A DNA stretch of 64,000 bases from an uncultured delta proteobacterium. GTDB lineage: Bacteria; Desulfobacterota; Binatia; Binatales; Binataceae. The stretch covers positions 2,376,613 to 2,440,612 of the forward strand of contig CAVXXK010000001.1 in NCBI GenBank assembly GCA_963765675.1, written 5' to 3'. The position numbers were made by a program, and so were the translations under genes. The notes under the pieces are model-generated. The model saw only the letters and a list, made by a program, of their open reading frames with translations. It was not told the DNA's origin and ran no database searches. Positions 1 to 45,629 of the stretch are shown here, piece by piece. Each line of letters starts with the position of its first letter. Position 1 is the first letter of the stretch.

Positions 1-1023
1 GCGCCGTCGCGCTTGATCTCCTCGGCGGTCGGGATTGGTCCATCGCCGCTCGATGTCTTCCCAGATTTTGTAGCCGAGATGATACGGGTTTAGCTGGCCG
101 GGGATCGGGCGCACGACCTGGTTGTGGCGCACGATAAATTCGAGATGCAGTCCATGCTCGAGACGCAGCGACTCGACGATCTTGTGATGCCAGAAGCTGG
201 CCCATCCCTCGTTCATGATCTTGGTTTCCATCATCGGGATGAAATACTTGGCTTCTTCATCGACGATCGTGAGCAGATCTTTCTCCCATTCGGCGAGATA
301 AGGATTGTGGTCGCGGATAAAGATCAGCAGGTCTTCGTCGGGCTCGAGCGGAACCTTGTGCAGATCGGGCTCGGTGAATTCCTGGCGCGCGTGGATTTTC
401 GCGAATGGATCGGGCTGCGGATGCGCCGCTTCGAGCGCGAGCTCGACCTGCTCGTTGTGCGTGCGTTTGCGAATCGCCAGGTTGCGGCGGCAATTCCACG
501 ACAGTGCGTGCGCGGCATCGAGGATACGCTCGATCTTCTCGATTCCGATCGAGGGATCCTCCGCGTAGCGCCGCACGCGCATCGCATGCGCCTTGAAAAT
601 CTCGATCGTGAGCTCGGCGCGGGTCGAGCGATAGGTGAAGTTATTTTTGAAAAAATCGTTGTGCCCATAGACGTGCGCGATGGTCAGAATCTGCAGCAGC
701 AGCGTGTTGTCGCGCATCAGGTAGGCGATCGCGGGATCGGAATTGATCACCATCTCGTACGGCAATCCGGAGACGCCGTGATCGTAAAGCGTCTTCAGCT
801 TCTCGTAGGATTTGCCGTACGACCAGTGCGGGTAGTGCGAGGGCATCCCGGAGTAAGCCATGTACCCGAGCATCCCGGTGTGGTCGCAAATCTCGAATTC
901 CTGCGCGTAGCAATCGAGGCCGAACTCATCGACCTTCTCGCGAATCTTCGCGTCCCATTCGGCCAGATCGGCGAGTGTGTAGTTCGAGTGCGAAGCTTGT
1001 TCATGCGCCGCGTGACTGCTCAT
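1..1023 (-). CDS. spoVR: SpoVR/YcgB family protein, partial (runs off the window edge)
   Basis: Not in the ORF track; translated by hand from the ATG at 1023, which overlaps the yeaH stop (ATGA). Sequence includes GMPSHYPHWSYGKSYE, LPYEMVINSDPAIAYLMRDN, IAHVYGHNDFFKNN and NPYHLG. A possible 1-nt indel lies near position 32. Confidence 0.92.
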   Translation of the reverse strand, partial: MSSHAAHEQASHSNYTLADLAEWDAKIREKVDEFGLDCYAQEFEICDHTGMLGYMAYSGMPSHYPHWSYGKSYEKLKTLYDHGVSGLPYEMVINSDPAIAYLMRDNTLLLQILTIAHVYGHNDFFKNNFTYRSTRAELTIEIFKAHAMRVRRYAEDPSIGIEKIERILDAAHALSWNCRRNLAIRKRTHNEQVELALEAAHPQPDPFAKIHARQEFTEPDLHKVPLEPDEDLLIFIRDHNPYLAEWEKDLLTIVDEEAKYFIPMMETKIMNEGWASFWHHKIVESLRLEHGLHLEFIVRHNQVVRPIPGQLNPYHLGYKIWEDIERRWTNPDRRGDQARRR

Positions 1024-2402
1024 TCCTTCACCCTGTCTTTGGCCAGGAACGCCTTGAACGACGGCCAGATGTCTTCCTTGCGCTCGATCAGCACGGTGTG
1101 AAAATTCGGCGCCTGGATTTTCCGGAATACGTTCAGCATCGAGGATTCGTAGTAGCGCGACCCGAGCGGCTTGATCTCGCCGTATCCGAACAGGTTGCAG
1201 ATCGATGCGAGCTCTTCGCCGGCTTTCAGCGCGGCGGGATTGTCGGAGTCGAAGTTGTCGCCGTCGGAGCAGTGAAACGCGTACACGTTCCAGAGAGAAG
1301 GATGGTACCGCGCGGCGATTATTTCGAGCGCCTTCTGGTAGCCCGACGAAATGAAAGTGCCGCCCGACTCGCCCTTGTGAAAAAATTCTTCCTCGGTGAC
1401 TTCGTAGGCTTCGGTGTGATGCGCGATGAAAATAATTTCGACGTTGCGGTAGCGAGTCGAGATGAACTGGTAGAGCAGAAAGAAGAAGCTGCGCGCCAGG
1501 TATTTCTTCATCGTGTCCATCGAGCCGGAGGTGTCCATGATGCAAATCACGGCGGCGTTGGACTCCTCGCGCGTGTCAACCTCGACGTGCTTGTAGCGCA
1601 GGTCGTCCTGATGAAACGGAAAGCGGCGCTTCTTCACCGCGACGCGCGTGCCGCCGCCCGGCGTCGCGTCGTCGGTCTCCTCGAGATCGCGCGCTTCGGA
1701 ATCGAGCGAGTCTTCCGCGTCGTTCAGCTCGCCCAGATCGAGATTCTCAGCGTCGAGAATAGCGTCGTCCGACTCGGCGGATTCAGGCGCTCCCGGCGCG
1801 AGGCCGCGGGTCGCGTCGGCGGAGTGCGCCGCGTTGCCGCCGCGGCGGCGCTCGGAGGCAAGTATCCTCATCACGCGCTGCTTGGCGGTGCGGCGCTTGT
1901 CGAGCCGCACGCGGATTCCGACGTGGCGATAGCCTTTGCGGCGCGACGAGTAGTCGGCGATTATTTCGCGCAGCGCACGGCGCTCGAGATTCGGGAGCTC
2001 GAGGTCCTCGAACATGATCTCGATCAGCTCTTCGAGCGTGACGTCGGTCTCGTAGTAATCGACGCCGGGGCGATCGCCGGCCATGTCGTCGCCCTGGCCC
2101 TGGCCTTCCTTGCCGGTCTTGCCGACCACGTCGCCGGGCTTGGAATCGCCGTTGCCCTGCGACGCGCCGGGAGTATTTTCGCCAAAGATGAAGCGGTACT
2201 CCTTGATGCCGCGCAAGGGGACCTTGATGACGCGGTCCTTGTCTTTGCCGATGATCGATTCCTCGGCGATGATGTCGGCGATATTTTCGCGGATCGATTC
2301 GCGGACTTTCTGCCGATGCCGCTGGCGGTCGCCGGCGGAGCGGTCGGAGCGTTCGGCGTCAGAGGGCCGGTATTCGCGGAAGATAGTGTCGCCAGTAGCC
2401 AT
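1020..2402 (-). CDS. yeaH: YeaH/YhbH (DUF444) vWA-like protein
   Basis: DRQRHRQKVRESIREN, MDTSGSM MIDAS-like motif, FFHKGESGGT, YAFHCSDGDN; lies between prkA and spoVR. Confidence 0.93.
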   Translation of the reverse strand: MATGDTIFREYRPSDAERSDRSAGDRQRHRQKVRESIRENIADIIAEESIIGKDKDRVIKVPLRGIKEYRFIFGENTPGASQGNGDSKPGDVVGKTGKEGQGQGDDMAGDRPGVDYYETDVTLEELIEIMFEDLELPNLERRALREIIADYSSRRKGYRHVGIRVRLDKRRTAKQRVMRILASERRRGGNAAHSADATRGLAPGAPESAESDDAILDAENLDLGELNDAEDSLDSEARDLEETDDATPGGGTRVAVKKRRFPFHQDDLRYKHVEVDTREESNAAVICIMDTSGSMDTMKKYLARSFFFLLYQFISTRYRNVEIIFIAHHTEAYEVTEEEFFHKGESGGTFISSGYQKALEIIAARYHPSLWNVYAFHCSDGDNFDSDNPAALKAGEELASICNLFGYGEIKPLGSRYYESSMLNVFRKIQAPNFHTVLIERKEDIWPSFKAFLAKDRVKE

Positions 2403-2493
2403 GCGGGACTCCTCTTCGCGGTCGATTCAAGTATAGCGTGTCCGCGCGCCCGGGGCATCGGGGGGTAGCGCGCGGATGGGCGATCATGAGAAT

Positions 2494-2871
2494 TCATTTC
2501 ACGGTTTCACTTGCGCGGGAAGCCGCATAGAGGAGCTTGCCCTCGCGGATTACCGTCGCGGGGAGCGATGTTCTGACCCGCGCGCGAAAATGGAACCATT
2601 CATCGGTACAGATCAGAACATCTTTCGGCTTCCCGATTCCCCAGAGAATCTCGTACGCGAGCTTGCTTCCTTTCAACTCGCGCGGGGCGTCGTCGGGCAC
2701 GACGACCAGAAGATCATAGTCGCTGTCGGGGCCGGCAGTGCCGCGTGCTTTTGAGCCGAACAAAAAGATTCGCAGCGGATGATAAGCGTCTGCGATCCGC
2801 CGGACGATTTCCCGCAGCGCCGGATCGTCGTGCAGCATCTGTTGCTCAATCTCGGCAGCCATTTTACCCAT
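2494..2871 (-). CDS. Minimal nucleotidyltransferase (MNT/MntA antitoxin-like), no adjacent HEPN partner
   Basis: IFLFGSKARG...DSDYDLLVVV Pol-beta motif and C-terminal VIREGKLLY. Confidence 0.88.
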   Translation of the reverse strand: MGKMAAEIEQQMLHDDPALREIVRRIADAYHPLRIFLFGSKARGTAGPDSDYDLLVVVPDDAPRELKGSKLAYEILWGIGKPKDVLICTDEWFHFRARVRTSLPATVIREGKLLYAASRASETVK

Positions 2872-3123
2872 CAGTTCGTAAGGACGAGGGTTCGACGCAT
2901 CTTATCTCCGTCGTCTTCTGCATCCTATCTCACTCATTTCTATAACGCTTTTTTGACGGTGGGTTCGTTCCCGGGATTTTGCGCATCGCGTCGGGGGAGA
3001 GTGTCCGGAAATGCTGAGGAATTATGTAAAAACCAAGAGTTCGTTTTGATCGCCGCATATCGAGAATTTCTGGCTCCTCGCCCTGTAGAGGCTGTCAATT
3101 TTCCTCGCAGAAGCTCAGTTGGT

Positions 3124-3231
3124 GTCATCCTGAGCCGCAGGCGAAGGATCTCCGCGAAGCGATTAGTGCAACCAACCCTGGCTCTTCGCACTAATCGCTT
3201 CGCGGAGATCCTTCACTTCGTTCAGGATGAC
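3124..3231 (+). repeat. ~108-bp palindromic element with GTCATCCTGA...TCAGGATGAC termini (copy 1)
   Basis: Long imperfect inverted repeat (gaaggatctccgcgaagcgattagtgc / gcactaatcgcttcgcggagatccttc); the first ~50 nt are identical to the reverse complement of the copy at 50327-50444. Confidence 0.92.
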
Positions 3232-3257
3232 GGACAAGAACTCGCCATTTATCGACA

Positions 3258-3410
3258 CCCTCCCGTAAGCGAGAGGTTGGGTGAGGGTCCTTTTTCAGCG
3301 CGACGCGCGAGCGGTGCGCGACTATAGAACTGTCCACGACCGTGGCGGCACGACGAGTTATCCGGCATCGGTCCCTCACCTGGCCTCTCCCTGACAGGGA
3401 GAGGAACCAG
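3258..3410 (+). repeat. BoxC-like element (GAGAGG...GGTGAGGG / CCCTCACC...CCTCTCCC), module B
   Basis: Termini and internal ttcagcgcg..cgc segment match 8541-8713 and the reverse complement of 52140-52316. Confidence 0.85.
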
Positions 3411-3433
3411 ATAAGAGAGCCACTGTGCGGCGC

Positions 3434-5368
3434 TCAATCTTTCCAGAGATTGTTGGCGGCGTACTTCAGGACTACGTCCACGCAGGATTCGCAGTAGCCG
3501 TTCTCGAGGAGGTTCTTGACCATCGCGCTGTACTTCTCGCCCTGCTCCTCGTCGCGGGTGCGGGCCTTGGTGATGATGCGCGAGATGTCGCGGACCGAGG
3601 TCATCAGCTTCTTCTCGATCGCTTCTTTAAGCGGCTCGTAGCTCTTGTAGCTGACCTTCTCGCCGCGGCGCGAGGTCGCCCACAGATACGCGATCACTTC
3701 CTGGCGGAAGCCGTCGGCCGCCGAGCCGATAATCGCGATCTGCTCTTCGATCGATTTGAGGAAGCCCTCGTCGGGCGACAGCTCTTCCTTGGTGTTGCGA
3801 TCGCGGACCTTGGTCTTGTTGACGTAGGCCTCGGCGTGGTCGAGATAGTTCTGGAACAGCGATTCGGCCTGCTCCTGGTAGGAGTAGACGAACGCGCGCG
3901 TAATCTCCTTTTCCAGCAGCTCCAGATATTCCTTGTGCAGCGTGTCCTGCAGCAGTTCGAGGTATGCCTTGCGCGTGTCGTCGGGGAGGTCGGCTTCCTT
4001 GGTCATCGCGATCAGCGACTCGCGCACGTTGATCGGATTGATGCAGTTGCCGCTGACGTTGTCGGAAAGCGCGTTGTCGAGCGCCTTCATGATGAATCGG
4101 GTCGAGATGCCGTTCATCCCTTCGCGCTTGGTGTCTTCCTTCAGCTCCTGCACGTCGATCTTCTTGGTGCGTCCCTTCTCGACCACTTCCTCTCCGTTGT
4201 AGAGCCGGAGCTTGGTCATCAGATCGCACTTCGAGGTCGGTTCGAGCCGCGAGAGGATCGCGAACATCGAGGCGAGCTCGAGCGTGTGCGGCGCGACGTG
4301 CGCGCGGAAGTCGGAGTTGCGGATGATCTTCAGATAGATCTTCACCTCTTCCGACAGGCGCAGATTGTACGGAACCTTGACTACGACGATTCGGTCGAGG
4401 ATCGCCTCGTTGGTGTGGTCGGCCTTGAACTTCTGCCATTCGGCTTCGTTCGAGTGGGCGACGATCGTCGTATCGACATAGACCATCCCATGGCGTCCGG
4501 GCGCCGGGATGACTTTCTCCTGCGTCGCGGTGATCATCGCGTGCAGGTATTCGGTTTCGTTCTTGAAGACTTCGATAAACTCGACCACGCCGCGGTTGCC
4601 GACGTTGAGCGCGCCGTTGAGTTCGAGCACACGCGGGTCGCCTTCGGAATATTGGTCGAGCTTCGAGATATCTTCGCTGCCGATCAGGACCGAGGTGTCC
4701 TGATTGTTCGGGTCGACCGGCGGAACGACGCCCACGCCGACGCGGTTGCGCTTCGAGAAGCTCTTGGTCTCGATCGGAAATTCTTCGTAGCGCTGATTGA
4801 ACTCGACCTTCAGGCGATAGCGGCAGACCGGGCACAGGTCGCCCTCGATATGCACCCCGAGCATCTTCTCGAACTCGCGCCGCAGATGGCGCGGGATCAG
4901 ATGCAGCGGCTCCTCGTGCATCGGGCATCCTTCGATGCTGTAGATCACCCCGGTCTGTTCGAGTCCGCGCTGAAGGCGCTCGACCAGCGAGGATTTGCCC
5001 GATCCGACCGGCCCCATCAGGTACAGGACCTGGCGCGATTCCTCGCCCTTGAGCGAGGCGGAATGGAAGTAGCGTACGATTTGCGAAATCGTCCGCTCGA
5101 TTCCGAAAAACTCTTCCGAGAAGAATCCGAACACCTTTACCGGCTCGTCCTTGTACAGCCGCTTGGTGCGCGGATCGTCGCTCTCCTGGATGCTGCGCGA
5201 GCCCGACGCGGTGATCATGTCGTAGATGCGCGCGTGGGAAAGCTTGGTGATAGTCGGATCGGCCTTGACCAGTTCGAGATAGGCAAGCAGCGTTCCGCTC
5301 CACTTTTCAGATTCGCGGGCGGCGCGGTCTTCTTTGATTACGCGTTCGAAGTGATTGGGTTCAGCCAT
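3434..5368 (-). CDS. prkA: PrkA/YeaG family AAA+ serine protein kinase
   Basis: FFGIERTISQIVRYF, Walker A GPVGSGKSS, GCPMHEEPLHLIP, YSEGDPR, NRGVVEFIEVFK, AHSNEAEW, NEAILDR. Confidence 0.96.
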   Translation of the reverse strand: MAEPNHFERVIKEDRAARESEKWSGTLLAYLELVKADPTITKLSHARIYDMITASGSRSIQESDDPRTKRLYKDEPVKVFGFFSEEFFGIERTISQIVRYFHSASLKGEESRQVLYLMGPVGSGKSSLVERLQRGLEQTGVIYSIEGCPMHEEPLHLIPRHLRREFEKMLGVHIEGDLCPVCRYRLKVEFNQRYEEFPIETKSFSKRNRVGVGVVPPVDPNNQDTSVLIGSEDISKLDQYSEGDPRVLELNGALNVGNRGVVEFIEVFKNETEYLHAMITATQEKVIPAPGRHGMVYVDTTIVAHSNEAEWQKFKADHTNEAILDRIVVVKVPYNLRLSEEVKIYLKIIRNSDFRAHVAPHTLELASMFAILSRLEPTSKCDLMTKLRLYNGEEVVEKGRTKKIDVQELKEDTKREGMNGISTRFIMKALDNALSDNVSGNCINPINVRESLIAMTKEADLPDDTRKAYLELLQDTLHKEYLELLEKEITRAFVYSYQEQAESLFQNYLDHAEAYVNKTKVRDRNTKEELSPDEGFLKSIEEQIAIIGSAADGFRQEVIAYLWATSRRGEKVSYKSYEPLKEAIEKKLMTSVRDISRIITKARTRDEEQGEKYSAMVKNLLENGYCESCVDVVLKYAANNLWKD

Positions 5369-13534: not shown

Positions 13535-14232
13535 GATCGTGGAGCGGCAAGCGCGCGTCTGCGCGCGATCTCGCGATTCTGGCGCTCCAACGTGGCGGTA
13601 TGAAGCTGCGCGGCGATTTCTTCGGGCAGCGTCGTGACAGCGTGTCCGGTCGCGAGCGCCTGAACATAGATCGCGGCGGTCTTTTCCAGCAGCTCGACAA
13701 AGGTGAAGGTCTTTTCGAGGTCGGCGCCGACGCATAGCGCGCCGTGGTTCTGCATGATGTAGCAGTGGCATCGGTTGGCGAGCGCGCGGGTCACGTTGTC
13801 GTGCAGCTCGCGCGAGCCGGACAGCGCATAGGGAATCAGGTCGACGCGGCTGCCAATCGCGAGCGTGACCTCGTCGAACATCGGCGGGATCGACGCGTCG
13901 ATCACACTGCATACGCTCGCGCCCGACTGATGGGTATGGATGACGGCGCTTACGTCTTCGCGCGTGCGATAGGCCGCGATGTGCATCGGAGTCTCGATCG
14001 ACGGCTTGCGCTCGCCCTCGATCCGCTTGAGATCCAAATCGATGATGCAGATATCGTCGGCGGTCATCGCGCCGTAGGGCAGCCGGGTCGGCGTGACCGC
14101 GATCGCGTCTTCGCCTTCGATCCGCATCGAAACGTTTCCGGCGCTGCCCGAATGCGAGCCGAAATAGCCGTACTCGGACAGGCGTTTGCTCATCTCGAGG
14201 ACGCGACGTTTGTAATCGTCGTATGAGCTCAT
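13531..14232 (-). CDS. Class II aldolase/adducin family protein (fuculose-phosphate aldolase-like)
   Basis: GNVSMR, KPSIETPMH, AVIHTH, MQNHG zinc-binding motifs. Confidence 0.92.
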   Translation of the reverse strand: MSSYDDYKRRVLEMSKRLSEYGYFGSHSGSAGNVSMRIEGEDAIAVTPTRLPYGAMTADDICIIDLDLKRIEGERKPSIETPMHIAAYRTREDVSAVIHTHQSGASVCSVIDASIPPMFDEVTLAIGSRVDLIPYALSGSRELHDNVTRALANRCHCYIMQNHGALCVGADLEKTFTFVELLEKTAAIYVQALATGHAVTTLPEEIAAQLHTATLERQNREIARRRALAAPRS

Positions 14233-14309
14233 CGTGCCGGACCTACGACAATCTTTCAGGTGACGCGCTTGCGCGTCAATGCGGGAGAGTTGCAGGCCGC
14301 GCGCGGCGC

Positions 14310-14917
14310 TCAGTCGTGCTTGAACAGATGCTCGCCTTCGCGATGCTCGAACTTTTGCTGGTGCGAGCGAAAACGGCGGCTGACTTCAGAGCGCTCTTCG
14401 GGGGTCATCGCCTGCCAGCGTTTGTAATTTTCCATCACATGCGCGCGCTGCTGCGGCGGTAGCTGCTGAAAATGCTGATAGCGCTGCATGATCTGCTGCC
14501 GGCGATCGGGCGGAAGCTGTTTGAAGTGATTGTAGGACTGGCGCAACTGCTCGCGACGCTCGGGCGGAAGCGAGCGCCATTGGCGCATCCCGCGCAGGAC
14601 TTGCTGGCGCTGGTCGGGCGGCAGGCTGCGGAACTGATGGAAGTTCTGCTCGACTGAATTTCGCTGCTCGGGCGACATCGTCCTCCACTGCCGATAATTT
14701 TCCAGCACACGTTCGCGCTGATCGGGCGTGAGCGCGTTCCATTGGTCCGCGCGCCGCGAGATGAGAGCCTGCTCGGCGGCATTGCGCGGCTGCCCGGGCG
14801 CGAATCCCTGGGCATCGGCAAATACGGCGCGAACGCGCTCAGAAGCATCGCGAGGCCGACAATCGCCGCCGTAAAGCTCAAGCGTCGCATGAGATTTATT
14901 CGCCGGGGCGCCATCAC
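14310..14917 (-). CDS. Secreted DUF3106-like helical repeat protein, frameshifted near 14825
   Basis: The signal peptide is in the 14435..14917 frame. The W/F-x-x-L-P-P-x-x-R repeats (WNALTPDQR, WRTMSPEQR, FRSLPPDQR, WRSLPPERR, FKQLPPDRR, FQQLPPQQR) are in the 14310..14708 frame. Confidence 0.8.
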
Positions 14918-15228
14918 TCGGTCTCCTGGTCGCCAGCCGGCGGAGGTAGTTGGAAGGTTTGCGGCGGTGGTGGTGGCGCGTAGGAATTGGGAGGCGGCGA
15001 TCCGTTTGGTCCCAGGTAGCCGAGCGCGTTTAGCGTCTGGATCTGCTCGAGCATCGACCCGTCGCCGCCGCCGTTCTGCGCGGCCGCGTTGGGATTGGGT
15101 TTGAACAAATCCAGATTGAGCAGCATGTTCAGATCCGGCGGCGGATCGTTCTGCGCCTGCGCCGCCGGGGCTGAGGATATGAGCAGAGCGAGTAACATCG
15201 CGCTTGCCAGGCTAGGACCGCTTTTCAT
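14914..15228 (-). CDS. Small secreted Pro-rich protein in the ECF operon
   Basis: Signal peptide (MKSGPSLASAMLLALL...AQA), DLNMLLNLDLF motif; overlaps both neighbours. Confidence 0.7.
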   Translation of the reverse strand: MKSGPSLASAMLLALLISSAPAAQAQNDPPPDLNMLLNLDLFKPNPNAAAQNGGGDGSMLEQIQTLNALGYLGPNGSPPPNSYAPPPPPQTFQLPPPAGDQETE

Positions 15229-15742
15229 TGGTTGTGTCCGTGGACGTAAACTCATCCAGATGCTCGATCACATCATAGTTCTCAAGCAAGTCCAGATGCT
15301 CGACCACGGGATAATCGCGAAGCAGGCCGATATCAGTCACGCCGATCGCATCCTCCATCGCAAGTTGATCGACCGGCGGTGCTCCGATCTGCGAGCGCGG
15401 ACTGAGCGTCAGGATCAGCACGATCGCGGCGACCACGGCCCCGGCCGTCGCCATCGAGGCCCACGCGATCCGCGGCGACCACCATCCGACGCGTGAAGTT
15501 TGCGGACGATCGCGGCGCGCGGCGATCTTGCGATGCAACTCAGCGCGATAGACGCTCCAGTCGGGCTCGGCGATCTGCGCGACGTCGATCGCGATCGTCT
15601 TGAGCACGGCGGCGAACGCCTCGGCGTCGTCGCGGCATCGCGCGCATCCGGCCAGATGGTCGGCGACGCGCTCGCGCTCTTCGGCGCTCAACTCACCGCG
15701 CAGATAGGGCGCGATCTCGGTCTCGGGATGTCGCTCGAGCAT
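15212..15742 (-). CDS. Zinc-finger (zf-HC2/ZAS) transmembrane anti-sigma factor
   Basis: YLRGELSAEERERVADHLAGCARC (HxxxCxxC), TM helix, C-terminal repeated HLDLLENYDVIEHLD. Confidence 0.9.
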   Translation of the reverse strand: MLERHPETEIAPYLRGELSAEERERVADHLAGCARCRDDAEAFAAVLKTIAIDVAQIAEPDWSVYRAELHRKIAARRDRPQTSRVGWWSPRIAWASMATAGAVVAAIVLILTLSPRSQIGAPPVDQLAMEDAIGVTDIGLLRDYPVVEHLDLLENYDVIEHLDEFTSTDTTNEKRS

Positions 15743-15757
15743 CGCCTTTAGCCGTCC

Positions 15758-16327
15758 TTACTCATTTTTCCGCATGGTTTTCTTAAGATGCGCGAGTGCG
15801 CGATGAATGTGCACGCGCGCAGTGCTCTCGGAGCACTTAAGTATCGCCGCGATCTCGCGGCTGGTGAGACCCTCTTCGCTCTGAAGCAACACTGCCGCCT
15901 TTTGAGTCGGAGACAATCCTTCGAGCGCGACGCGCAGGCGCCTGCCCGCATCGCCACTGATCGCCAGCGCCTCAGGCCCCGGCTCGGTTGACGGCGGATC
16001 GACCGGTGGCGAGTCGGGGTCGTCGTCCTGAGTCGAGAAGGGAACCATCTTGCGCCACCATTTGTTGCGCCGTTTGTGATCGATGCAGAGGTTGACGACG
16101 ATCCGGTAGAACCAGGTTGAAAATTTGGAGCGGCCGTCAAACTTGCCCGCCGACTCGTACAGCCGGATGAAAGCATCCTGAGATACGTCGTGGGCGTCGG
16201 ACTCGTTACCGAGAATCGAGCAGGCGAGCCTGAATGCTCGAGCCTGATGACGATCGAGCAGAGCCTCGAACGCCGCGGCGTCGTGCTCGGCAACCTGCCT
16301 GCAAAGTTCTTCATCGGACTGCACCAC
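15758..16327 (-). CDS. ECF RNA polymerase sigma factor
   Basis: DAHDVSQDAFIRLY, FDGRSKFSTWFYRIVVNLCID, region 4 EGLTSREIAAILKCSESTARVHIHRA. Confidence 0.95.
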   Translation of the reverse strand: MVQSDEELCRQVAEHDAAAFEALLDRHQARAFRLACSILGNESDAHDVSQDAFIRLYESAGKFDGRSKFSTWFYRIVVNLCIDHKRRNKWWRKMVPFSTQDDDPDSPPVDPPSTEPGPEALAISGDAGRRLRVALEGLSPTQKAAVLLQSEEGLTSREIAAILKCSESTARVHIHRALAHLKKTMRKNE

Positions 16328-16419
16328 AGCGACCGGTCCCTCTCTGGTTTGGCCGGCCGCGTCCCCTTTGGGGGACTTTGCTATTCGGCCGCGTGGCCGA
16401 TGCTACCCTTACCGGCCCG

Positions 16420-16449
16420 TTGGACGAAACCAGATGTACATTCGTTTAC
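16420..16449 (-). promoter_or_regulatory. ECF-type promoter driving the sigma operon (autoregulatory)
   Basis: Minus strand reads GTAAAC-gaatgtacatctggttt(17)-CGTCCAA. Confidence 0.8.
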
Positions 16450-16536
16450 ATTGCGGGCGGCGCGATCGTGGTATTGAAATCTTCGCCGATTTTCCGCCTG
16501 AGGTGGTGCAATCGTCATCGGAGAATTCCAAGCCTG

Positions 16537-16566
16537 GTAAACGGATGCGAGGTGATAGGCGTCCAA
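16537..16566 (+). promoter_or_regulatory. ECF-type promoter driving the secreted repeat-protein gene
   Basis: Plus strand reads GTAAAC-ggatgcgaggtgatagg(17)-CGTCCAA; boxes and spacing are identical to the divergent copy. Confidence 0.8.
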
Positions 16567-16643
16567 GTTGCTGAAGCAGACGAGATCGCGGTGAACGCCA
16601 AATCTTATCCAGACCAGCTTCGTAGAACTCAGGAGGACTTGCG

Positions 16644-17354
16644 GTGAAGAAGACATTGACAACTTTTGCGGCGATGGTTTTTGTCGGCGCGATGGGGACC
16701 GCGGCGATGGCGCAGGTGCCCTACAACGGCGGCTACGGACAGGGAATCGGCGCGAAGCAGGTGAATCGCTTCCAGAACGGCTACCTGGACGAGCATCCGG
16801 AAGTCGCCAGCGAGCTCGGACACAATCCGGCGCTGGTGGATAATCCGCAGTTCATGGCGAACCATCCGGGGCTGCGCGACTACTTCGAGAGCCATCCGGG
16901 CGTCCGCGCCGACATCCGGGCGCATCCGGACCGCTTCATGAGCGACGAATGGAAGCACGACGCGTGGCATCAGCCTGGGTACGGACACGGTTATGGCTAC
17001 GGCTATGGGCACGGATATGGCCCGGGAATCGGTGCACCGCAGCTGAATCGCTTCCAGAACGGTTACCTGGATGAGCATCCGGAAGTCGCGCAAGAGCTCG
17101 GACGCAATCCGGGTCTGGTGGACAATCCGCAGTTCATGGCGAACCATCCGGGGCTGCAACAGTACTTTGCGAATCATCCGGAAGTCCGCGCCGATCTCAA
17201 GGCCCATCCGGACCGATTCATGAACGATGAGTGGAGGAATGACGCGTGGCATCACCCGGGGTATGCGCATCCGATGGCGAACGGCGTAGCGAATCCGGTT
17301 GCCCACACGGGTTGGCAGACTCATCCGATGCAGCATTACAACCAGAGACACTAA
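16644..17354 (+). CDS. Secreted His/Asn/Pro-rich protein with two ~80-aa repeats
   Basis: AGGAGG RBS; signal peptide ending AMA-Q; duplicated NRFQNGYLDEHPEVA...NPQFMANHPGL...AHPDRFM with a 282-nt period and a GYGHGYG linker. Confidence 0.88.
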   Translation: MKKTLTTFAAMVFVGAMGTAAMAQVPYNGGYGQGIGAKQVNRFQNGYLDEHPEVASELGHNPALVDNPQFMANHPGLRDYFESHPGVRADIRAHPDRFMSDEWKHDAWHQPGYGHGYGYGYGHGYGPGIGAPQLNRFQNGYLDEHPEVAQELGRNPGLVDNPQFMANHPGLQQYFANHPEVRADLKAHPDRFMNDEWRNDAWHHPGYAHPMANGVANPVAHTGWQTHPMQHYNQRH

Positions 17355-17380
17355 ATCCGAAGTGATGCTTTAACTTCTCG

Positions 17381-17416
17381 CGCCGCCGGAGCCAGCCTCC
17401 GGCGGTGTCTTTTTTT
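17381..17416 (+). terminator. Rho-independent terminator
   Basis: cgccgccggag-ccagc-ctccggcggtg followed by a T run. Confidence 0.85.
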
Positions 17417-17495
17417 GGCGGACACGCTCTTCGCGAGCAGTCGTCGTGGTGTATAAGAGAAAAACGCGGCGCAGGTCCGCGCGGGAGGTTTTCCG

Positions 17496-18380
17496 ATGGC
17501 GAGCGAGATGTTCACGAAGGTGCTCGAGATCGTCAGGGCACAACCGATGAATCCAAATGCCACCCCAGCGCAGCGGCGTGCCGGGATGGAGAAGATCAGC
17601 GAGCATGTCGCGCGCGATGTCACCTGCACGCCCGTCGATGCGGGCGGGATTCCCGCCGAATGGGTCGAGGCTCCGGGCGCCGCGCCGGACCGAGTCATAC
17701 TCTATCTGCACGGCGGCGGTTACGTGATGGGTTCGATCGGGACGCATCGCGCGATGGTTGCGCGAATCGCGCGCGCTTCTAACTCGCGAGCCCTGTTGAT
17801 CGATTACCGGCTCGCGCCGGAGCATCCGTTTCCCGCCGCGGTTGATGACGCCGTAGCTGCTTATCGATGGCTCATCGCGCAGGGCTGTAAGCCGGGTAGA
17901 ATCGTGATTGCTGGGGATTCGGCGGGTGGAGGCCTCGTGCTCGCGACGCTGCTCAAGCTGCGCGATACGGGCGTCACGCTGCCGGCGGCGGGGGTCGGGA
18001 TCTCACCCTGGACGGACCTCGAAGGCACCGGGGAATCGGTCAAGACGAAGGCGGCGATCGATCCGATGGTCACGCAGGAGAATCTGTCGATCTCGGCGAA
18101 GACCTATTACGCGGATCACGATCCCAAAAATCCGCTTATTTCCCCGATCCACGCCGACTTTCGCGGATTGCCGCCGCTCCTGCTCCAGGTCGGCGAGTCG
18201 GAGATCCTGCTCGACGACGCGACGCGGGTCGCCGCGCGTGCAAAAGCCGCGGGCGTCAACGTCGAGATCGAGATCTGGCCCGAGATGATCCATGTATGGC
18301 ACGTGTTCGCGAAGATTCTCCCCGAGGGCCAGCAAGCAATCGACAAGATCGGCAAGTTCGTGATCGCGCTCACGACGTGA
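17496..18380 (+). CDS. Alpha/beta hydrolase (HSL family esterase)
   Basis: YLHGGGY, DYRLAPEHPFPAA, GDSAGG, EILLDD, MIHVW. Confidence 0.94.
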   Translation: MASEMFTKVLEIVRAQPMNPNATPAQRRAGMEKISEHVARDVTCTPVDAGGIPAEWVEAPGAAPDRVILYLHGGGYVMGSIGTHRAMVARIARASNSRALLIDYRLAPEHPFPAAVDDAVAAYRWLIAQGCKPGRIVIAGDSAGGGLVLATLLKLRDTGVTLPAAGVGISPWTDLEGTGESVKTKAAIDPMVTQENLSISAKTYYADHDPKNPLISPIHADFRGLPPLLLQVGESEILLDDATRVAARAKAAGVNVEIEIWPEMIHVWHVFAKILPEGQQAIDKIGKFVIALTT

Positions 18381-18435: not shown

Positions 18436-18663
18436 ATGGATCGCACATTCACGGCTTATGTCGAGTTTGACGCCGATGCCAAATTATACGTCGGCACAGT
18501 TCCGGGATTAGCCGGAGCGCATAGTCAGGGCGCCACGCTCGATGAGTTGCGCGATAACCTGCGCGAAGTGATCAGCCTAATTGTCGAAGAGCGACAATCG
18601 CGAGGCGAAGTGCTTGAAATCGATCCCTTTGTCGGAATCCAGCAAATCGTAGTAACCGCGTGA
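18436..18663 (+). CDS. hicB: HicB family antitoxin (short, no DNA-binding domain)
   Basis: YVGTVPGLAGAHSQGATLDELRDNLREVISL. Confidence 0.92.
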   Translation: MDRTFTAYVEFDADAKLYVGTVPGLAGAHSQGATLDELRDNLREVISLIVEERQSRGEVLEIDPFVGIQQIVVTA

Positions 18664-18890
18664 GCAAGCTGCCCATCGTCAGTACGCGGACGATGGAGAA
18701 GCTACTCCGTGACATGGGTTTCGTGGCAGTTCGACAGAAAGGCAGCCACATCTTTTTCAGGCATCCAGATGGCAGAACCACGACCGTCCCGAGGCATAGT
18801 GGACGTGACTTGGCGCGCCCTCTAATCCGCGAGATTTTACGCGAGATTGATCTAGCACCAGAAGAATTCGAGCGCCTGCTCCGCGATTGA
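18660..18890 (+). CDS. hicA: HicA family mRNA interferase toxin
   Basis: GFVAVRQKGSHIFFRHPDGRTTTVPRH...LIREILR; GTGA overlap with hicB. Confidence 0.93.
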   Translation: MSKLPIVSTRTMEKLLRDMGFVAVRQKGSHIFFRHPDGRTTTVPRHSGRDLARPLIREILREIDLAPEEFERLLRD

Positions 18891-27055: not shown

Positions 27056-28516
27056 TCAGGCGAGCAGTGCGGGTACTCGCTTGCGCACCCAACCTGTCGC
27101 TTGATCGTAGGCGTGCGCGAGTTGCAGGCAGGCGAACTCCGAATGATTCGGCGCGACTATCTGGATGCCCATTGGCAGGCCGGTGCTGCTGAAACCGGCC
27201 GGTACGCTCAGCGCGGGGCAGCCGGACATCGTGACCGGGATCATGACCTCCATCCATCGATGATAGGTGTCCATCGCTTTGCCGCCGACGGTCTTGGGCC
27301 AGTGGAGCGTCGCGTCGAACGGAAAAACCTGCGCGGACGGAAGTATGAAGAAATCATACTTCTCGAATAGTGCGCGCATCGCGTGATACCACGCGCTCCG
27401 CACTGCGGATGCGTCGGCGACGTCGTAGGCGCTGATCTTGAAGCCGCGCTCGATTTCCCATTGAACCTCGGGTTTCATCAGCGCGCGCCGCGCCGGATCC
27501 GAGTAGTAAGTTTTGAGCAGACCGCCTACTTGCCACGCGCGCAGCACGAGCCAGCTTTCCCACACGCGCTCGATTGGATAATCGGGAATCGCTTCTTCGA
27601 CGACGCATCCAATTGATTCAAAAGCGCTGAGCGCGCCGCGGCACAGGTCGAGCACGCCGGGCTCGAAGGGCAGGTATCCGCCGAAGTCGCCGCCCCAGGC
27701 GATTCGCGCGCCTTTGAAATCTCGCGCGAGGGAATCGGCGAAGCGCGCGGAGTCCTCGCGGATCGAGAGCGGGACGCGCGCGTCGTGCCCAGCGATTACG
27801 GCCAGCAGCATCGCGAGGTCCGGCACCGTGCGCGCCATCGGTCCATGCACCGAGAGCGCGGGCATGAAGACCTCGCGAACGTCGGAGGGGACGCGGCCGA
27901 ACGCGGTGCGAAATCCGAACACGTTGTTGAACGCGGCGGGATTTCTGAGCGAGCCCGCGTGATCGCTGCCGTCGGCGACCGGCAGCATCCGCAGTGCGAG
28001 CGCGACGGCGGCGCCGCCGCTGCTTCCACCGGCGGTCTTCGATTGATCGTAGGCGTTGAGCGTGGTGCCGAAAACCGGATTATAGGAATGCGAGCCGAGA
28101 CCGAATTCCGGGACGTTGGTTTTGCCGATGATGACCGCGCCGGCGCTCTTTATCCGCTCGGCCAGGATCGAATCGGCGCGTGGGATAAAGTCCTTGAGGA
28201 TCGGCGAGCCCATCGTGGTGCGGATCCCCGCCGTGAGCTCGAGGTCTTTGATAGCGTGCGGAAACCCGTGCATCGGGCCGGCGTACTCGCCGCGAGAAAG
28301 CTCAGCGTCGCGGCGGCGCGCGTCCTCGATCAGCTCGGCGCGAGGGCGAATCGAGACGATTGCGTTGACGGCGGGATTGATCGCGTCGATATGATCGAGA
28401 TACGCCGTCATCACCTCGGCGCATGAGATTTGCCGCGACTTGATCGCGCTCGAGAGCGCGGCCGCGTCCATCATCACGATTTCCGATCGAGGTTTCATAG
28501 AGACGCAATTATGCAT
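27056..28516 (-). CDS. Amidase (start uncertain, possibly 28498)
   Basis: PHAIKDL, GKTNVPEFG, GGSSGG, GSDHAGSLRNPA, GLPMGIQ. Confidence 0.93.
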   Translation of the reverse strand: MHNCVSMKPRSEIVMMDAAALSSAIKSRQISCAEVMTAYLDHIDAINPAVNAIVSIRPRAELIEDARRRDAELSRGEYAGPMHGFPHAIKDLELTAGIRTTMGSPILKDFIPRADSILAERIKSAGAVIIGKTNVPEFGLGSHSYNPVFGTTLNAYDQSKTAGGSSGGAAVALALRMLPVADGSDHAGSLRNPAAFNNVFGFRTAFGRVPSDVREVFMPALSVHGPMARTVPDLAMLLAVIAGHDARVPLSIREDSARFADSLARDFKGARIAWGGDFGGYLPFEPGVLDLCRGALSAFESIGCVVEEAIPDYPIERVWESWLVLRAWQVGGLLKTYYSDPARRALMKPEVQWEIERGFKISAYDVADASAVRSAWYHAMRALFEKYDFFILPSAQVFPFDATLHWPKTVGGKAMDTYHRWMEVMIPVTMSGCPALSVPAGFSSTGLPMGIQIVAPNHSEFACLQLAHAYDQATGWVRKRVPALLA

Positions 28517-40582: not shown

Positions 40583-41174
40583 TCTCTCCGATCCAGCGGT
40601 TTTGAAACTGACCCACCAGATTCTGGCGCGTCCGGAATTCGTCGACGCGACCAGTCCGAAATGGATGACAGATTGGGAGCAAAGGATCGCGCAATGGATC
40701 GCGAGACTCGAGATTCTGCGCGACGGGAACCCGATTCTATATTGGACGATTTTCGGTTGCGTGTTTGCGATCGCGATCGTGCTATTCGCGCACATCATTT
40801 GGACGATCTGGATTGCGACGCACACGCTGGCGCCGCCTGAGAGCCGGATCACGCGAGCCGCTGCGCCCGATCTTGCCGCCGACGCTGCCCGCCTGGCCGC
40901 GGATGGATATTACCTCGAAGCGGCGCATCGCTTGATGCTCGCGAGTTTTCGCACGCTCGGAGAGCGCGAGGTGATCGAGCTCAGGCCCGATCGATCGAAC
41001 CGCTGGATTCGCGCCGCGCTGCACAAATCGGCGCTCGGCGCGGAGCTTGCCGCCGACCTCGATCGCCTGGTCGAACGCACCGAGCGGCGATGGTTCAGCG
41101 ATCGCGAAAACGATCCGGCGATTTATGCGCAGTGGCGCACGGCCTTCGAGCGGCTGTCGTCGGCGGCGAGGTGA
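40575..41174 (+). CDS. DUF4129-like membrane protein
   Basis: ILARPEF, TM helix, AADGYYLEAAHRL, DRSNRW, ERRWF; position within the module. Confidence 0.75.
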   Translation: MPDLSDPAVLKLTHQILARPEFVDATSPKWMTDWEQRIAQWIARLEILRDGNPILYWTIFGCVFAIAIVLFAHIIWTIWIATHTLAPPESRITRAAAPDLAADAARLAADGYYLEAAHRLMLASFRTLGEREVIELRPDRSNRWIRAALHKSALGAELAADLDRLVERTERRWFSDRENDPAIYAQWRTAFERLSSAAR

Positions 41175-45618: not shown

Positions 45619-45629
45619 GGACGCCTCCG

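What the first reader, a model, noticed from the sequence alone, without database searches (positions are those of the whole stretch)
14310..17416. Self-contained ECF circuit: twin identical promoters link a sigma/anti-sigma/DUF3106 operon to a divergent secreted repeat protein
Seen: the 316-bp intergenic region has GTAAACG-N16-CGTCCAA once on each strand (minus 16420-16449, plus 16537-16566). All 14 box positions are identical, spacing is the same, and each copy points at one transcript. Known: ECF promoters typically carry AAC at -35 and CGT at -10 and are usually autoregulatory. Inference: this sigma drives both its own operon (ZAS anti-sigma, small secreted protein, DUF3106 protein) and the His/Asn/Pro repeat protein. 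That would define an uncharacterised envelope or metal stress module whose promoter can be read directly from the DNA.
Basis: partly seen in the sequence, partly recalled or inferred. Interest (0 to 1): 0.8.

Follow-up and report, generated by a model that had tools for sequence, protein, structure and literature searches.

The report
Self-regulating stress sigma factor module
An uncultured soil bacterium carries an alternative sigma factor whose conserved promoter sits twice, back to back, in front of its own four-gene operon and a neighbouring secreted-protein gene; this is an ordinary kind of bacterial stress switch, though this family has not been described.

Summary
GTAAACG-N16-CGTCCAA occurs exactly twice in the window, at 16420-16449 (-) and 16537-16566 (+), inside the 316-bp gap between an ECF sigma gene and a divergent gene.

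In 80 related loci, GTAAAC-N16-18-CGTC occurs 101 times against 2.4 expected. It lies on the sigma strand upstream of sigma in 67 of 80 loci, and on the opposite strand in 22 of 27 Binataceae loci.

- **Operon:** ECF sigma, a single-pass zinc-finger anti-sigma, a small secreted protein with no Pfam family, and a DUF3106 protein.
- **Divergent gene:** two hemophore-like (MHB) domains, followed by a strong terminator.
- **Distribution:** the sigma/anti-sigma/DUF3106 core and the promoter span Candidatus Binataceae and Rokubacteria/Methylomirabilota.

Caveats:
- No transcription start site or activation data exist.
- "Self-contained" could not be tested, and relatives have a third target.
- The DUF3106 gene here has a 1-bp frameshift.
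- The inducing signal is unknown.

The closest described system is ECF37 (sigma, DUF3619 anti-sigma, DUF3106). Its anti-sigma and promoter differ, so this is not shown to be ECF37. I rate it a new member of a known kind, of modest interest.

The parts
16420..16449 (-). P_sig: predicted ECF promoter of the sigma operon (-35 GTAAACG at 16449-16443; -10 CGTCCAA at 16426-16420)
   Evidence: Exact match. The motif is conserved on the sigma strand upstream of sigma in 67 of 80 loci. Binataceae consensus is tGTAAACGaa...gTTtCGTCaAA. Invariant columns in the 11-locus intergenic alignment.
16537..16566 (+). P_mhb: predicted ECF promoter of the divergent gene (-35 GTAAACG at 16537-16543; -10 CGTCCAA at 16560-16566)
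   Evidence: Exact match. The motif is conserved on the divergent strand in 22 of 27 Binataceae loci, consensus tGTAAACGaAtC...CGTCCAA. Invariant columns.
16328..16419 (-). 5' leader of the sigma mRNA, GC-rich and structured
   Evidence: Folds at -43 kcal/mol, z-score -3.43 against 200 shuffles. A conserved block TAnnATCGG lies about 20 nt after the -10 box. Consensus folding support is weak: 6 pairs, -3.66 kcal/mol.
15758..16327 (-). ECF (group 4) sigma factor, 189 aa
   Evidence: Pfam Sigma70_r2 at 74.1 bits and Sigma70_r4_2 at 55.2 bits. TIGR02937 at 102.8 bits against a cutoff of 42.9; no NCBIfam equivalog cutoff reached. Closest solved relatives are SigE 4e-20, SigW 4e-18 and RpoE 4e-15.
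15212..15742 (-). Anti-sigma factor, 176 aa: N-terminal zinc-finger (ZAS) domain, one membrane helix (residues 95-113), and an acidic 63-aa periplasmic tail
   Evidence: Pfam zf-HC2 at 37.1 bits against a cutoff of 22.2, matched by 61 of 61 orthologues. H5, H29, C33 and C36 are invariant in 61 sequences. Membrane helix and tail. An LD[LMIV][LFWY][ED] motif occurs in the last 70 aa of 64 of 66 orthologues. Tail pI is 4.1.
14914..15255 (-). Small secreted protein, 113 aa (104 aa if it starts at the conserved Met-10, ATG at 15228). It has a PPDLxMLLNLDLF motif, a SMLxQIxTLxAxGYL helix and a Pro-rich tail, and belongs to no Pfam family
   Evidence: No Pfam or NCBIfam hit; 0 of 29 orthologues hit Pfam. 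Alignment. The motif is found after the anti-sigma gene in 37 of 65 loci. 164 cluster representatives at E<=1e-3 among 1.84 billion proteins.
14310..14914 (-). DUF3106 protein gene, interrupted by a 1-bp deletion near 14821. The signal peptide (from ATG 14914) is in one frame; seven 18-residue repeats of the DUF3106 domain (14310-14843) are in another
   Evidence: Pfam PF11304 at 107.6 bits against a cutoff of 24.3, matched by 57 of 57 orthologues. Frames. It is the only isolated indel not a multiple of three inside the module's genes. The 8 orthologue N-termini printed all read as in-frame signal peptides. Repeats and pI 11.05.
16644..17354 (+). Secreted protein, 236 aa, with two hemophore-like (MHB) helical domains joined by a Gly/Tyr/His linker
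   Evidence: Pfam MHB PF16525 at 42.4 bits against a cutoff of 27.4, in two stretches. TIGR04529 at 37.9 bits against a cutoff of 32. Domain alignment with conserved HP motifs. 223 homologues, the named ones from Binataceae.
17380..17417 (+). Intrinsic terminator ending the divergent transcript
   Evidence: A 12-pair stem (9 G-C pairs) followed by a T run; sequence.

Best explanation
This is an ECF sigma/anti-sigma signalling module of an uncultured Candidatus Binataceae bacterium. It has two back-to-back promoters of the same sigma-specific type. In the resting state the sigma (15758-16327) is held at the membrane by the zinc-finger domain of the single-pass anti-sigma (15212-15742). A signal, probably sensed outside the cytoplasm through the anti-sigma's conserved acidic tail, inactivates the anti-sigma, most likely by regulated proteolysis. 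The freed sigma then directs RNA polymerase to tGTAAACGaa-N14-CGTC(C/A)AA. One copy transcribes sigma, anti-sigma, the small secreted protein and DUF3106, giving positive feedback with built-in negative feedback. The other copy transcribes a monocistronic gene for a secreted two-domain MHB (hemophore-like) protein. The output is therefore a small set of secreted helical proteins with no enzyme domain. Shown here: the sequence elements, the gene families, and the co-conservation of sigma, partner genes and promoter motif across two phyla. Inferred: that this sigma reads these promoters, how the anti-sigma is released, and what the signal and the secreted proteins do.
For: - **Motif in the window:** present twice, exact, each copy facing a gene.
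- **Motif enrichment in relatives:** 101 hits of GTAAAC-N16-18-CGTC in 709,567 bp of 80 loci, against a mean of 2.44 (maximum 7) in 50 shuffles. The spacer is 17 nt in 92 of 101 hits. The tool's own count gives the N17 form in 60 of 80 loci.
- **Motif position:** on the sigma strand within 900 bp upstream of sigma in 67 of 80 loci, and on the divergent strand in 22 loci, all Binataceae.
- **Loci without a sigma-side copy:** of 13 such loci, 3 lack upstream sequence (L036, L044, L050), 4 are sigmas of 40% identity or less (L075, L077, L079, L080), 1 is both (L078), and 3 form a subclade without the partner genes (L048, L058, L065). L070 is a truncated match and L024 has only the divergent copy.
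- **Footprint:** in 11 aligned intergenic regions the four boxes are invariant while most of the rest varies.
- **No competing promoter:** no sigma-70-like promoter at 9 of 12 or better in the 316-bp gap.
- **Synteny:** anti-sigma in 70 of 80 loci, DUF3106 in 65 of 80, both in 64 of 80.
- **Phylogeny:** the sigmas with these partners form one clade of 70 rows (support 98/95), split into Binataceae (26 rows) and Rokubacteria/Methylomirabilota (44 rows).
- **Targets of the divergent copy:** it faces the MHB gene directly in 13 loci, a roughly 100-aa lipoprotein gene in 8 (5 of these followed by an MHB gene), and another gene in 1.
- **Operon packing:** 15 nt between sigma and anti-sigma; anti-sigma and the small gene overlap; the small gene's stop overlaps the DUF3106 start.
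- **Anti-sigma features:** the four zinc-ligand positions are invariant, with one membrane helix and a conserved tail.
- **General knowledge:** an AAC-containing -35 box and a CGT-containing -10 box with a 16-17 nt spacer is the usual ECF promoter form, and upstream-motif conservation is how ECF groups get predicted promoters (PMC7826278 supplement).
Against: - There are no transcription start sites and no expression data; the organism is uncultured.
- In C. metallidurans, the only studied ECF with a DUF3106 partner (rpoR-rsrA-rsrB, ECF37) was transcribed from an RpoD-type start site. Its promoter fusion was equally active without rpoR, and the authors could not derive autoregulation for their ECF sigmas (PMC13492112, passages).
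- A similar motif (GTAAACC...CGTCTAA) also lies upstream of two much more distant sigmas, L072 and L073 at 33-38% identity. The motif class is therefore not unique to this sigma, and a paralogue could read it.
- Five Binataceae loci lack the divergent copy, one of them (L036) for want of upstream sequence.
- The DUF3106 gene here is frameshifted, so one output may be missing in this genome.
- A conserved leader block with a TAnnAT core just downstream of P_sig could be a housekeeping -10 element giving sigma-independent expression.
Confidence: 0.72

Rival explanations
1. The two boxes are real ECF-type promoters but are read by a different, paralogous ECF sigma encoded elsewhere in the genome. 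The adjacent sigma would then be a target rather than its own activator.
For: A closely similar motif stands upstream of distant sigmas in other phyla, L072 (Omnitrophota) and L073 (Planctomycetales), at 33-38% identity. A Rokubacteria subclade of related sigmas (L048, L058, L065) lacks both the partners and the motif, so paralogues exist. The C. metallidurans paper suggests cross-talk among ECF groups with CGT-type -10 boxes (PMC13492112, passage).
Against: The motif travels with this sigma clade across two phyla, in 67 of 80 loci. The simplest reading of that linkage is cognate recognition. No other ECF sigma is encoded in the 64-kb window.
Confidence: 0.1
2. The sigma operon is mainly expressed from a housekeeping promoter, and the ECF-like motif upstream of sigma contributes little. 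Only the divergent gene would be a true target.
For: This is what was reported for rpoR (ECF37) in C. metallidurans. A conserved TAnnATCGG block lies about 20 nt downstream of the P_sig -10 box in 11 loci.
Against: The sigma-side motif is the most widely conserved copy: 67 of 80 loci, including Rokubacteria where no divergent copy exists. The consensus scan found no sigma-70-like promoter in the gap. In Rokubacteria the motif sits 500-700 bp upstream, before an extra first gene of the operon. This fits an operon promoter rather than a relic.
Confidence: 0.1
3. The pair is an inverted-repeat operator for a dimeric DNA-binding regulator and not a pair of promoters.
For: The boxes do form inverted repeats: an 11-nt arm pair and a 7-nt arm pair.
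Against: The arms are 87 and 133 nt apart. In Rokubacteria only one copy exists, always in the gene's orientation. A third single copy occurs downstream of DUF3106 in 7 loci. The two conserved blocks keep a fixed 17-nt spacing in 92 of 101 hits, which is promoter geometry.
Confidence: 0.03

Closest known systems
ECF37 group (RpoR-RsrA-RsrB of Cupriavidus metallidurans), as described in the ECF re-classification (PMC7826278 supplement) and in PMC13492112
   Same: An ECF sigma followed by a single-pass anti-sigma and a conserved DUF3106 protein in one operon. The predicted promoter has TGT..AAC at -35 and CGT at -10. It is the only described ECF group with a DUF3106 partner in the held part of the supplement.
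   Different: - The ECF37 anti-sigma carries DUF3619 or an RskA-like domain; here 61 of 61 carry zf-HC2 and none carries either.
- The ECF37 motif is TGTCAACC / CGTT; here it is TGTAAACG / CGTC.
- ECF37 is found in Proteobacteria and Nitrospirae; this module is in Binataceae and Rokubacteria/Methylomirabilota.
- DUF3106 is at +2 in ECF37 and at +3 here, with an extra small secreted gene between.
- No divergent MHB gene is described for ECF37.
- Whether the sigma itself falls in ECF37 could not be tested.
RpoE-RseA-RseB of Escherichia coli (recalled from general knowledge; sequence relation from PDB 1or7)
   Same: An ECF sigma with a single-pass anti-sigma and a periplasmic protein in the same operon. 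In the recalled E. coli system that operon is autoregulated. It serves as the model for a periplasmic partner that controls anti-sigma proteolysis.
   Different: RseA is not a zinc-finger anti-sigma, and RseB is unrelated to DUF3106. Sequence relation to the sigma is only at family level (E 4e-15). The RpoE equivalog TIGR02939 scores 88 bits against a cutoff of 236.
SigW-RsiW of Bacillus subtilis (sequence relation from PDB 5wuq; promoter and proteolysis recalled)
   Same: A membrane-anchored zinc-finger anti-sigma. The promoter type, recalled as TGAAAC-N16-CGTA, resembles TGTAAAC-N17-CGTC. The ECF30 motifs TGAAACTTT / CGTC quoted in the supplement are similar.
   Different: SigW equivalog models score 88-96 bits against cutoffs of 209-243. 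The extracytoplasmic part of the anti-sigma, the partner genes and the phylum all differ.
Mycobacterial hemophore Rv0203 / MHB family (PF16525, TIGR04529)
   Same: The divergent protein passes the curated cutoffs of the MHB domain and of 'hemophore-related protein'. It is secreted and helical.
   Different: The Rv0203 equivalog model TIGR04530 scores 18 bits against a cutoff of 120. There is no sequence match to any solved structure. The domain is duplicated here. Haem binding is untested. Relatives are in Binatota and Acidobacteriota rather than Actinobacteria.

Membership tests
ECF (group 4) sigma-70 family | Only sigma regions 2 and 4, with family model score above cutoff | tested here: met
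   Sigma70_r2 at 74.1 bits (cutoff 24) and Sigma70_r4_2 at 55.2 bits (cutoff 25.7). TIGR02937 at 102.8 bits (cutoff 42.9).
ECF (group 4) sigma-70 family | Cognate anti-sigma encoded immediately downstream | tested here: met
   A zf-HC2 protein starts 15 nt after the sigma stop. It is syntenic in 70 of 80 loci.
Autoregulated ECF promoter | Conserved AAC-type -35 and CGT-type -10 boxes, 16-17 nt apart, upstream of the sigma's own operon in orthologues | tested here: met
   Present in 67 of 80 loci. The spacer between GTAAAC and CGTC is 17 nt in 92 of 101 hits.
Autoregulated ECF promoter | Transcription start downstream of the -10 box that depends on the sigma | not testable with these tools
   No expression data. 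The related RpoR showed no autoregulation.
ZAS (zinc-binding anti-sigma, zf-HC2) | H-x3-C-x2-C motif plus an upstream His or Cys ligand in an N-terminal anti-sigma domain | tested here: met
   H5, H29, C33 and C36 are invariant in 61 sequences. PF13490 at 37.1 bits (cutoff 22.2), matched by 61 of 61.
ZAS (zinc-binding anti-sigma, zf-HC2) | Binds zinc and the sigma | not testable with these tools
ECF37 | DUF3106 protein conserved downstream of the anti-sigma | tested here: met
   PF11304 at 107.6 bits, matched by 57 of 57 orthologues. It sits at +3 here, against +2 in ECF37.
ECF37 | Anti-sigma with DUF3619 or an RskA-like domain | tested here: not met
   0 of 61 anti-sigma orthologues match either; all match zf-HC2.
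ECF37 | Promoter TGTCAACC (-35) and CGTT (-10) | tested here: not met
   The consensus here is tGTAAACG and CGTC. It is similar in form but differs at defining positions.
ECF37 | Sigma sequence scores in the group's HMM | not testable with these tools
   No ECF-group HMM library and no ECF37 sequence were available.
DUF3106 (PF11304) | Score above the Pfam gathering cutoff | tested here: met
   107.6 bits against 24.3. Seven 18-residue L(T/S/P)PxxR repeats.
MHB / hemophore-related (PF16525, TIGR04529) | Score above the curated cutoffs | tested here: met
   42.4 bits against 27.4 and 37.9 bits against 32.
Hemophore Rv0203 equivalog (TIGR04530) | Score above the equivalog cutoff; haem binding | tested here: not met
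   18.3 bits against 120. Haem binding cannot be tested here.

The most novel reading that the evidence does not exclude
The module may be an undescribed ECF group shared by Binatota and Methylomirabilota in which signal sensing is done by a three-part periplasmic device. The parts would be the anti-sigma's invariant acidic tail (pI 4.1), a small acidic secreted protein with an LDLDLF motif (pI 4.05), and the strongly basic DUF3106 repeat protein (pI 11). DUF3106 would bind the tail and the small protein would compete for it. DUF3106 would then be a general periplasmic co-regulator of ECF anti-sigma factors, used with two unrelated anti-sigma families (DUF3619 in ECF37, zf-HC2 here). That would give DUF3106 its first function.
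Probability: 0.15. Interest if true: 0.55.

Novelty: new member of a known kind. Interest (0 to 1): 0.35.

Why it matters
It gives a cleanly defined sigma/anti-sigma/promoter triplet from two uncultured phyla, Binatota and Rokubacteria/Methylomirabilota, for which I found no published work on sigma factors. The triplet can be tested directly in a heterologous host and could serve as an orthogonal genetic switch.

It also links three protein families of unknown role to one regulator: DUF3106, a small secreted family without a Pfam model, and a non-actinobacterial branch of the hemophore-like MHB family. That narrows where to look for their function.

Beyond that it is a typical ECF circuit. It does not overturn anything known.

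Tried and rejected
- **Small protein versus anti-sigma tail:** the similarity seen by eye (LDLF versus LDLLE) is not supported by profile comparison, probability 1.6%.
- **DUF3106 versus MHB domain:** they share only the signal peptide, probability 42% over 19 columns.
- **DUF3106 as a CpxP/Spy-like (LTXXQ) protein:** no such Pfam hit for the window protein. Only 1 of 57 orthologues touches Metal_resist, at 4e-5.
- **DUF3106 fused to an anti-sigma:** the 'longer' search gave 2 proteins, neither with zf-HC2. The tool itself calls this weak evidence.
- **Small-protein fusions:** two long hits (P0332, P0321) have unrelated N-termini.
- **Solved structures by sequence:** nothing for MHB, only noise for DUF3106 at E>=0.029, and only weak hits for the anti-sigma (3hug 0.017, ChrR 0.6).
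- **DUF3106 in plasmid records:** no match, so no ECF37 locus could be fetched for a direct comparison.
- **RNA families:** no Rfam family in 14000-17700.
- **Conserved leader structure:** weak.
- **Literature searches:**
  - DUF3106 with ECF gave 0 papers.
  - DUF3106 alone gave 2 unrelated papers.
  - Binatota with 'sigma factor' gave 0.
  - GTAAAC with ECF and sigma gave 162 papers, none relevant among the 20 titles and abstract openings listed, which is all I saw.
  - The string GTAAAC does not occur in the held part of the ECF classification supplement, which is cut, so later groups may be missing.
  - Complex prediction of DUF3106 with the anti-sigma tail was unavailable.
  - Structure prediction was not accepting jobs, so no folds or fold searches were made.
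  - The Atlas does not hold the small protein. For an MHB homologue it returned only MHB clusters and a low-confidence model, pLDDT 0.55.
- **Not possible:** a genome-wide scan for the motif.

Full report
**1. Observation**

The sequence between the sigma gene start (16327, minus strand) and the divergent gene start (16644, plus strand) is 316 bp. GTAAACG-N16-CGTCCAA matches exactly twice in the 64-kb window, at 16420-16449 (-) and 16537-16566 (+). There are no further matches even with 2 mismatches allowed. Shuffled windows give a mean of 0.22 matches at that tolerance, and 4 of 100 reach two. The shorter core GTAAAC-N17-CGTC with one mismatch adds a single site at 27773-27799, as chance predicts. 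The repeat finder recovers both box pairs as inverted repeats.

**2. The genes**

The minus strand carries four tightly packed genes.

- **Sigma (15758-16327).** A 189-aa ECF sigma with Sigma70_r2 and Sigma70_r4_2. TIGR02937 scores 102.8 bits against a cutoff of 42.9, and no NCBIfam equivalog cutoff is reached.
- **Anti-sigma (15212-15742).** A 176-aa anti-sigma with a zf-HC2 domain. It has one hydrophobic helix at residues 95-113 and a 63-residue tail.
- **Small protein (14914-15255).** A 113-aa protein with a signal-peptide-like N-terminus and no Pfam or NCBIfam family.
- **DUF3106 (14310-14914).** A DUF3106 protein (PF11304, 107.6 bits) made of seven 18-residue L(T/S/P)PxxR repeats, pI 11.

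The plus strand carries a 236-aa secreted protein (16644-17354). It passes the curated cutoffs of the MHB 'haemophore' domain (42.4 bits against 27.4, two stretches) and of TIGR04529 'hemophore-related protein' (37.9 against 32). It fails the Rv0203 equivalog model, at 18 bits against 120. It is followed by a 12-pair terminator with a T run at 17380-17417, so that transcript is monocistronic.

No terminator was found between the DUF3106 stop and the next gene, a class II aldolase 77 bp downstream. That aldolase follows DUF3106 only in L001 among the relatives.

**3. Organism and relatives**

The sigma's homologues that carry a name are from Candidatus Binataceae. A scan of one genome per species with an alignment of 27 sigmas returned 567 relatives, of which the best 80 loci were kept.

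- L001 is the closest. Its sigma is 99-100% identical, and the DNA is about 91% identical over 6 kb.
- 27 loci are Binataceae-type, at 59-100% sigma identity.
- Most of the rest are Rokubacteria/Methylomirabilota, at 45-55% identity.

A maximum-likelihood tree was built from 77 rows. I left out L036, L052, L070 and L074 because their matches are partial or split. All sigmas with the partner genes fall in one clade of 70 rows (support 98/95), comprising a Binataceae clade of 26 rows (99/99) and 44 Rokubacteria rows. Seven distant sigmas from other phyla lie outside.

**4. Synteny**

tblastn with the window's proteins over the 80 loci gave these counts:

| Gene | Loci with a hit |
|---|---|
| Anti-sigma | 70 of 80 |
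| DUF3106 | 65 of 80 |
| Anti-sigma and DUF3106 | 64 of 80 |
| Small protein | 29 of 80 |
| MHB protein | 18 of 80 |

Several of the misses are loci that end too early. The small protein count rises to 37 of 65 loci when searched by its PD..MLL(N/D)LDL(F/L) motif in the gap after the anti-sigma. All 18 MHB hits are Binataceae.

Every one of 61 aligned anti-sigmas matches zf-HC2 and none matches DUF3619. H5, H29, C33 and C36 are invariant. A tail motif, consensus VVExLDLLE..DVI..LDEL, is present in 64 of 66.

**5. The motif in relatives**

GTAAAC-N16-18-CGTC occurs 101 times in the 709,567 bp of the loci, against a mean of 2.44 (maximum 7) in 50 shuffles. The spacer is 17 nt in 92 of 101 hits. 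The search tool's own count finds the N17 form in 60 of 80 loci.

- **Sigma-side copies.** 69 hits lie on the sigma strand within 900 bp upstream of sigma, in 67 loci.
- **Divergent copies.** 22 hits lie on the opposite strand upstream of sigma, in 22 loci, all Binataceae (22 of 27; L036 has no upstream sequence).
- **Other copies.** Of the 10 remaining hits, 7 lie just downstream of DUF3106. They face a conserved secreted protein of about 390 aa with no Pfam family, in L005, L008, L011, L016, L017, L018 and L052.

The consensus is tGTAAACGaa-N14-CGTC(C/A)AA. The sigma-side copies favour gTTTCGTCAAA and the divergent copies favour CGTCCAA.

In an alignment of 11 Binataceae intergenic regions, the four boxes are invariant. 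Beyond scattered single columns and the ribosome-site regions, the only other conserved block is a short stretch (TAnnATCGG) in the sigma leader. No sigma-70-like promoter at 9 of 12 or better lies in the gap.

In Rokubacteria the motif lies 500-700 bp upstream of sigma, in front of an extra first gene. That gene encodes a secreted protein made of D.RDIRQDRRE-type repeats, found in 24 loci.

The divergent copy faces the MHB gene directly in 13 loci. In 8 it faces a roughly 100-aa lipoprotein gene, and in 5 of those an MHB gene follows. In 1 it faces another gene.

**6. How it most likely works**

The co-inheritance of sigma, anti-sigma and motif across two phyla is the standard basis for assigning a promoter to an ECF sigma, as the ECF re-classification does group by group (PMC7826278, supplement passages and part 12). 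So is the promoter geometry and the orientation towards genes.

I therefore read the two copies as promoters of this sigma. One gives autoregulation of sigma, anti-sigma, the small protein and DUF3106. The other gives expression of the MHB protein.

The anti-sigma's invariant zinc ligands and single membrane helix place it with membrane-anchored ZAS factors. For those, release by regulated proteolysis is the common route; this is recalled, not tested. The conserved acidic tail is the obvious sensing or docking surface.

The secreted outputs have no enzyme domain. The charge pattern suggests they interact: tail pI 4.1, small protein pI 4.05, DUF3106 pI 11.05. This is inference only. The complex predictor was unavailable, and profile comparison does not support homology between the small protein and the tail.

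The inducing signal is unknown. 'Metal' rests only on two things. One is the conserved histidines of the MHB domain. The other is the Co/Ni phenotype reported for RpoR in the ECF classification supplement.

**7. Evidence against, and limits**

- There are no transcription start or expression data.
- In C. metallidurans the rpoR-rsrA-rsrB operon (ECF37) had an RpoD-type start, and its fusion was as active in the rpoR deletion strain (PMC13492112, passages).
- A similar motif occurs upstream of two distant sigmas, L072 and L073. Cross-recognition by paralogues is therefore possible.
- 'Self-contained' is untested, because I could not scan the genome. The window itself holds no third site and no homologue of the relatives' extra targets.

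**8. The frameshift**

Relative to L001 and L002 the window lacks one base near 14821, inside the signal-peptide region of the DUF3106 gene. As it stands, the signal peptide frame runs on into a 160-aa out-of-frame product. The DUF3106 frame has no start codon before GTG at 14708.

This is the only isolated indel not a multiple of three within the module's coding regions in the 6-kb comparison with L001. The 8 orthologue N-termini printed all read as in-frame signal peptides. Whether this is a real mutation or an assembly error cannot be decided here.

**9. Comparison with what is known**

The closest described system is ECF37: sigma, a DUF3619 (or RskA-like) anti-sigma, and DUF3106 at +2. It occurs in Proteobacteria and Nitrospirae, with promoter TGTCAACC / CGTT. 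The DUF3106 partnership and the general promoter shape are shared. The anti-sigma domain, the exact boxes and the taxa are not. The sigma could not be scored against group HMMs, so I do not file it under ECF37.

By sequence the sigma is nearest, at family level only, to the solved SigE, SigW, AlgU-type and RpoE proteins.

I found no paper on this module. DUF3106 with ECF gave 0 papers, DUF3106 alone gave 2 unrelated papers, and Binatota with 'sigma factor' gave 0. The held part of the classification supplement, which is cut, does not contain the string GTAAAC. It does mention a group (ECF202) made only of sequences from candidate phyla and unclassified bacteria, without details. That group could be related, but I could not check.

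**10. Verdict**

- **Observation:** confirmed.
- **Interpretation:** supported by comparative evidence, with the caveats above.
- **Kind:** a new member, possibly a new group, of the well-known autoregulated ECF sigma/anti-sigma circuits.
- **Interest:** modest at 0.35. It offers a clean, testable promoter/sigma/anti-sigma set from uncultured phyla and a lead on DUF3106, but nothing that a specialist would find surprising.

Noticed in passing
window 14815-14830 (within 14310-14914, minus strand): A 1-bp deletion relative to L001 and L002 separates the signal peptide from the DUF3106 domain. It is the only isolated frameshifting indel in the module's genes. It is either a pseudogene or an assembly error.
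   Followed up: partly
window 16328-16419 (minus strand): The sigma mRNA leader folds strongly (-43 kcal/mol, z-score -3.43), and one hairpin encloses the ribosome-binding region. A block TAnnATCGG about 20 nt after the -10 box is conserved in 11 loci. Consensus folding pairs it weakly with the region just before the start codon. It could be a leader element or a housekeeping -10 box.
   Followed up: partly
window 16430-16437 (P_sig spacer): The palindrome ATGTACAT sits inside the spacer of the sigma-side promoter. It is kept in L001 and L002 but not in more distant loci, and its meaning is unknown.
   Followed up: no
L005 7335, L008 7247, L011 7140, L016 7153, L017 7204, L018 7473, L052 7215 (plus strand): A third copy of the promoter motif (tGTAAACGa...CGTCTTACA) lies downstream of DUF3106. 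It faces a conserved secreted protein of about 390 aa with no Pfam family. The window has no homologue of it.
   Followed up: partly
L003 4464-4751, also L009, L012, L014, L021, L022, L023, L024: In 8 Binataceae loci the divergent promoter faces a lipoprotein-like gene of about 100 aa (…GC.AYDPQGAAQQYAPSYYN…) with no Pfam family. In 5 of them the MHB gene follows it.
   Followed up: partly
L033 4487-4834 and 23 other Rokubacteria/Methylomirabilota loci: In these phyla the operon starts with an extra gene for a secreted protein made of D.RDIRQDRRE-type charged repeats, with no Pfam family. The promoter motif sits in front of this gene.
   Followed up: partly
L072 4313-4339 and L073 4-30: Distant ECF sigmas (33-38% identity) from Omnitrophota and Planctomycetales MAGs have a similar motif (GTAAACC...CGTCTAA) in front of a secreted-protein gene that precedes sigma. 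The motif class is therefore wider than this clade.
   Followed up: no
window 18436-18890 (plus strand): A HicB-like antitoxin (18436-18663) and a HicA toxin (18660-18890, PF07927 at 70 bits) form a toxin-antitoxin pair about 1 kb beyond the MHB gene.
   Followed up: yes
window 1020-5368 and 41090-46514: Other neighbours are a PrkA kinase with DUF444 (a yeaG/yeaH-like pair) and a MoxR ATPase-DUF58/VWA cluster with SpoIIM-like and RDD membrane proteins. An RDD protein is listed at +3 of ECF37s1 in the classification supplement, but here it is 30 kb away, so I take that as coincidence.
   Followed up: no
P0121 and relatives (homologues of window 16644-17354): Multi-repeat MHB-domain proteins of 120-515 aa are common in Binatota and Acidobacteriota clusters of the ESM Atlas. 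This is far from the actinobacterial hemophores the family is named after.
   Followed up: partly
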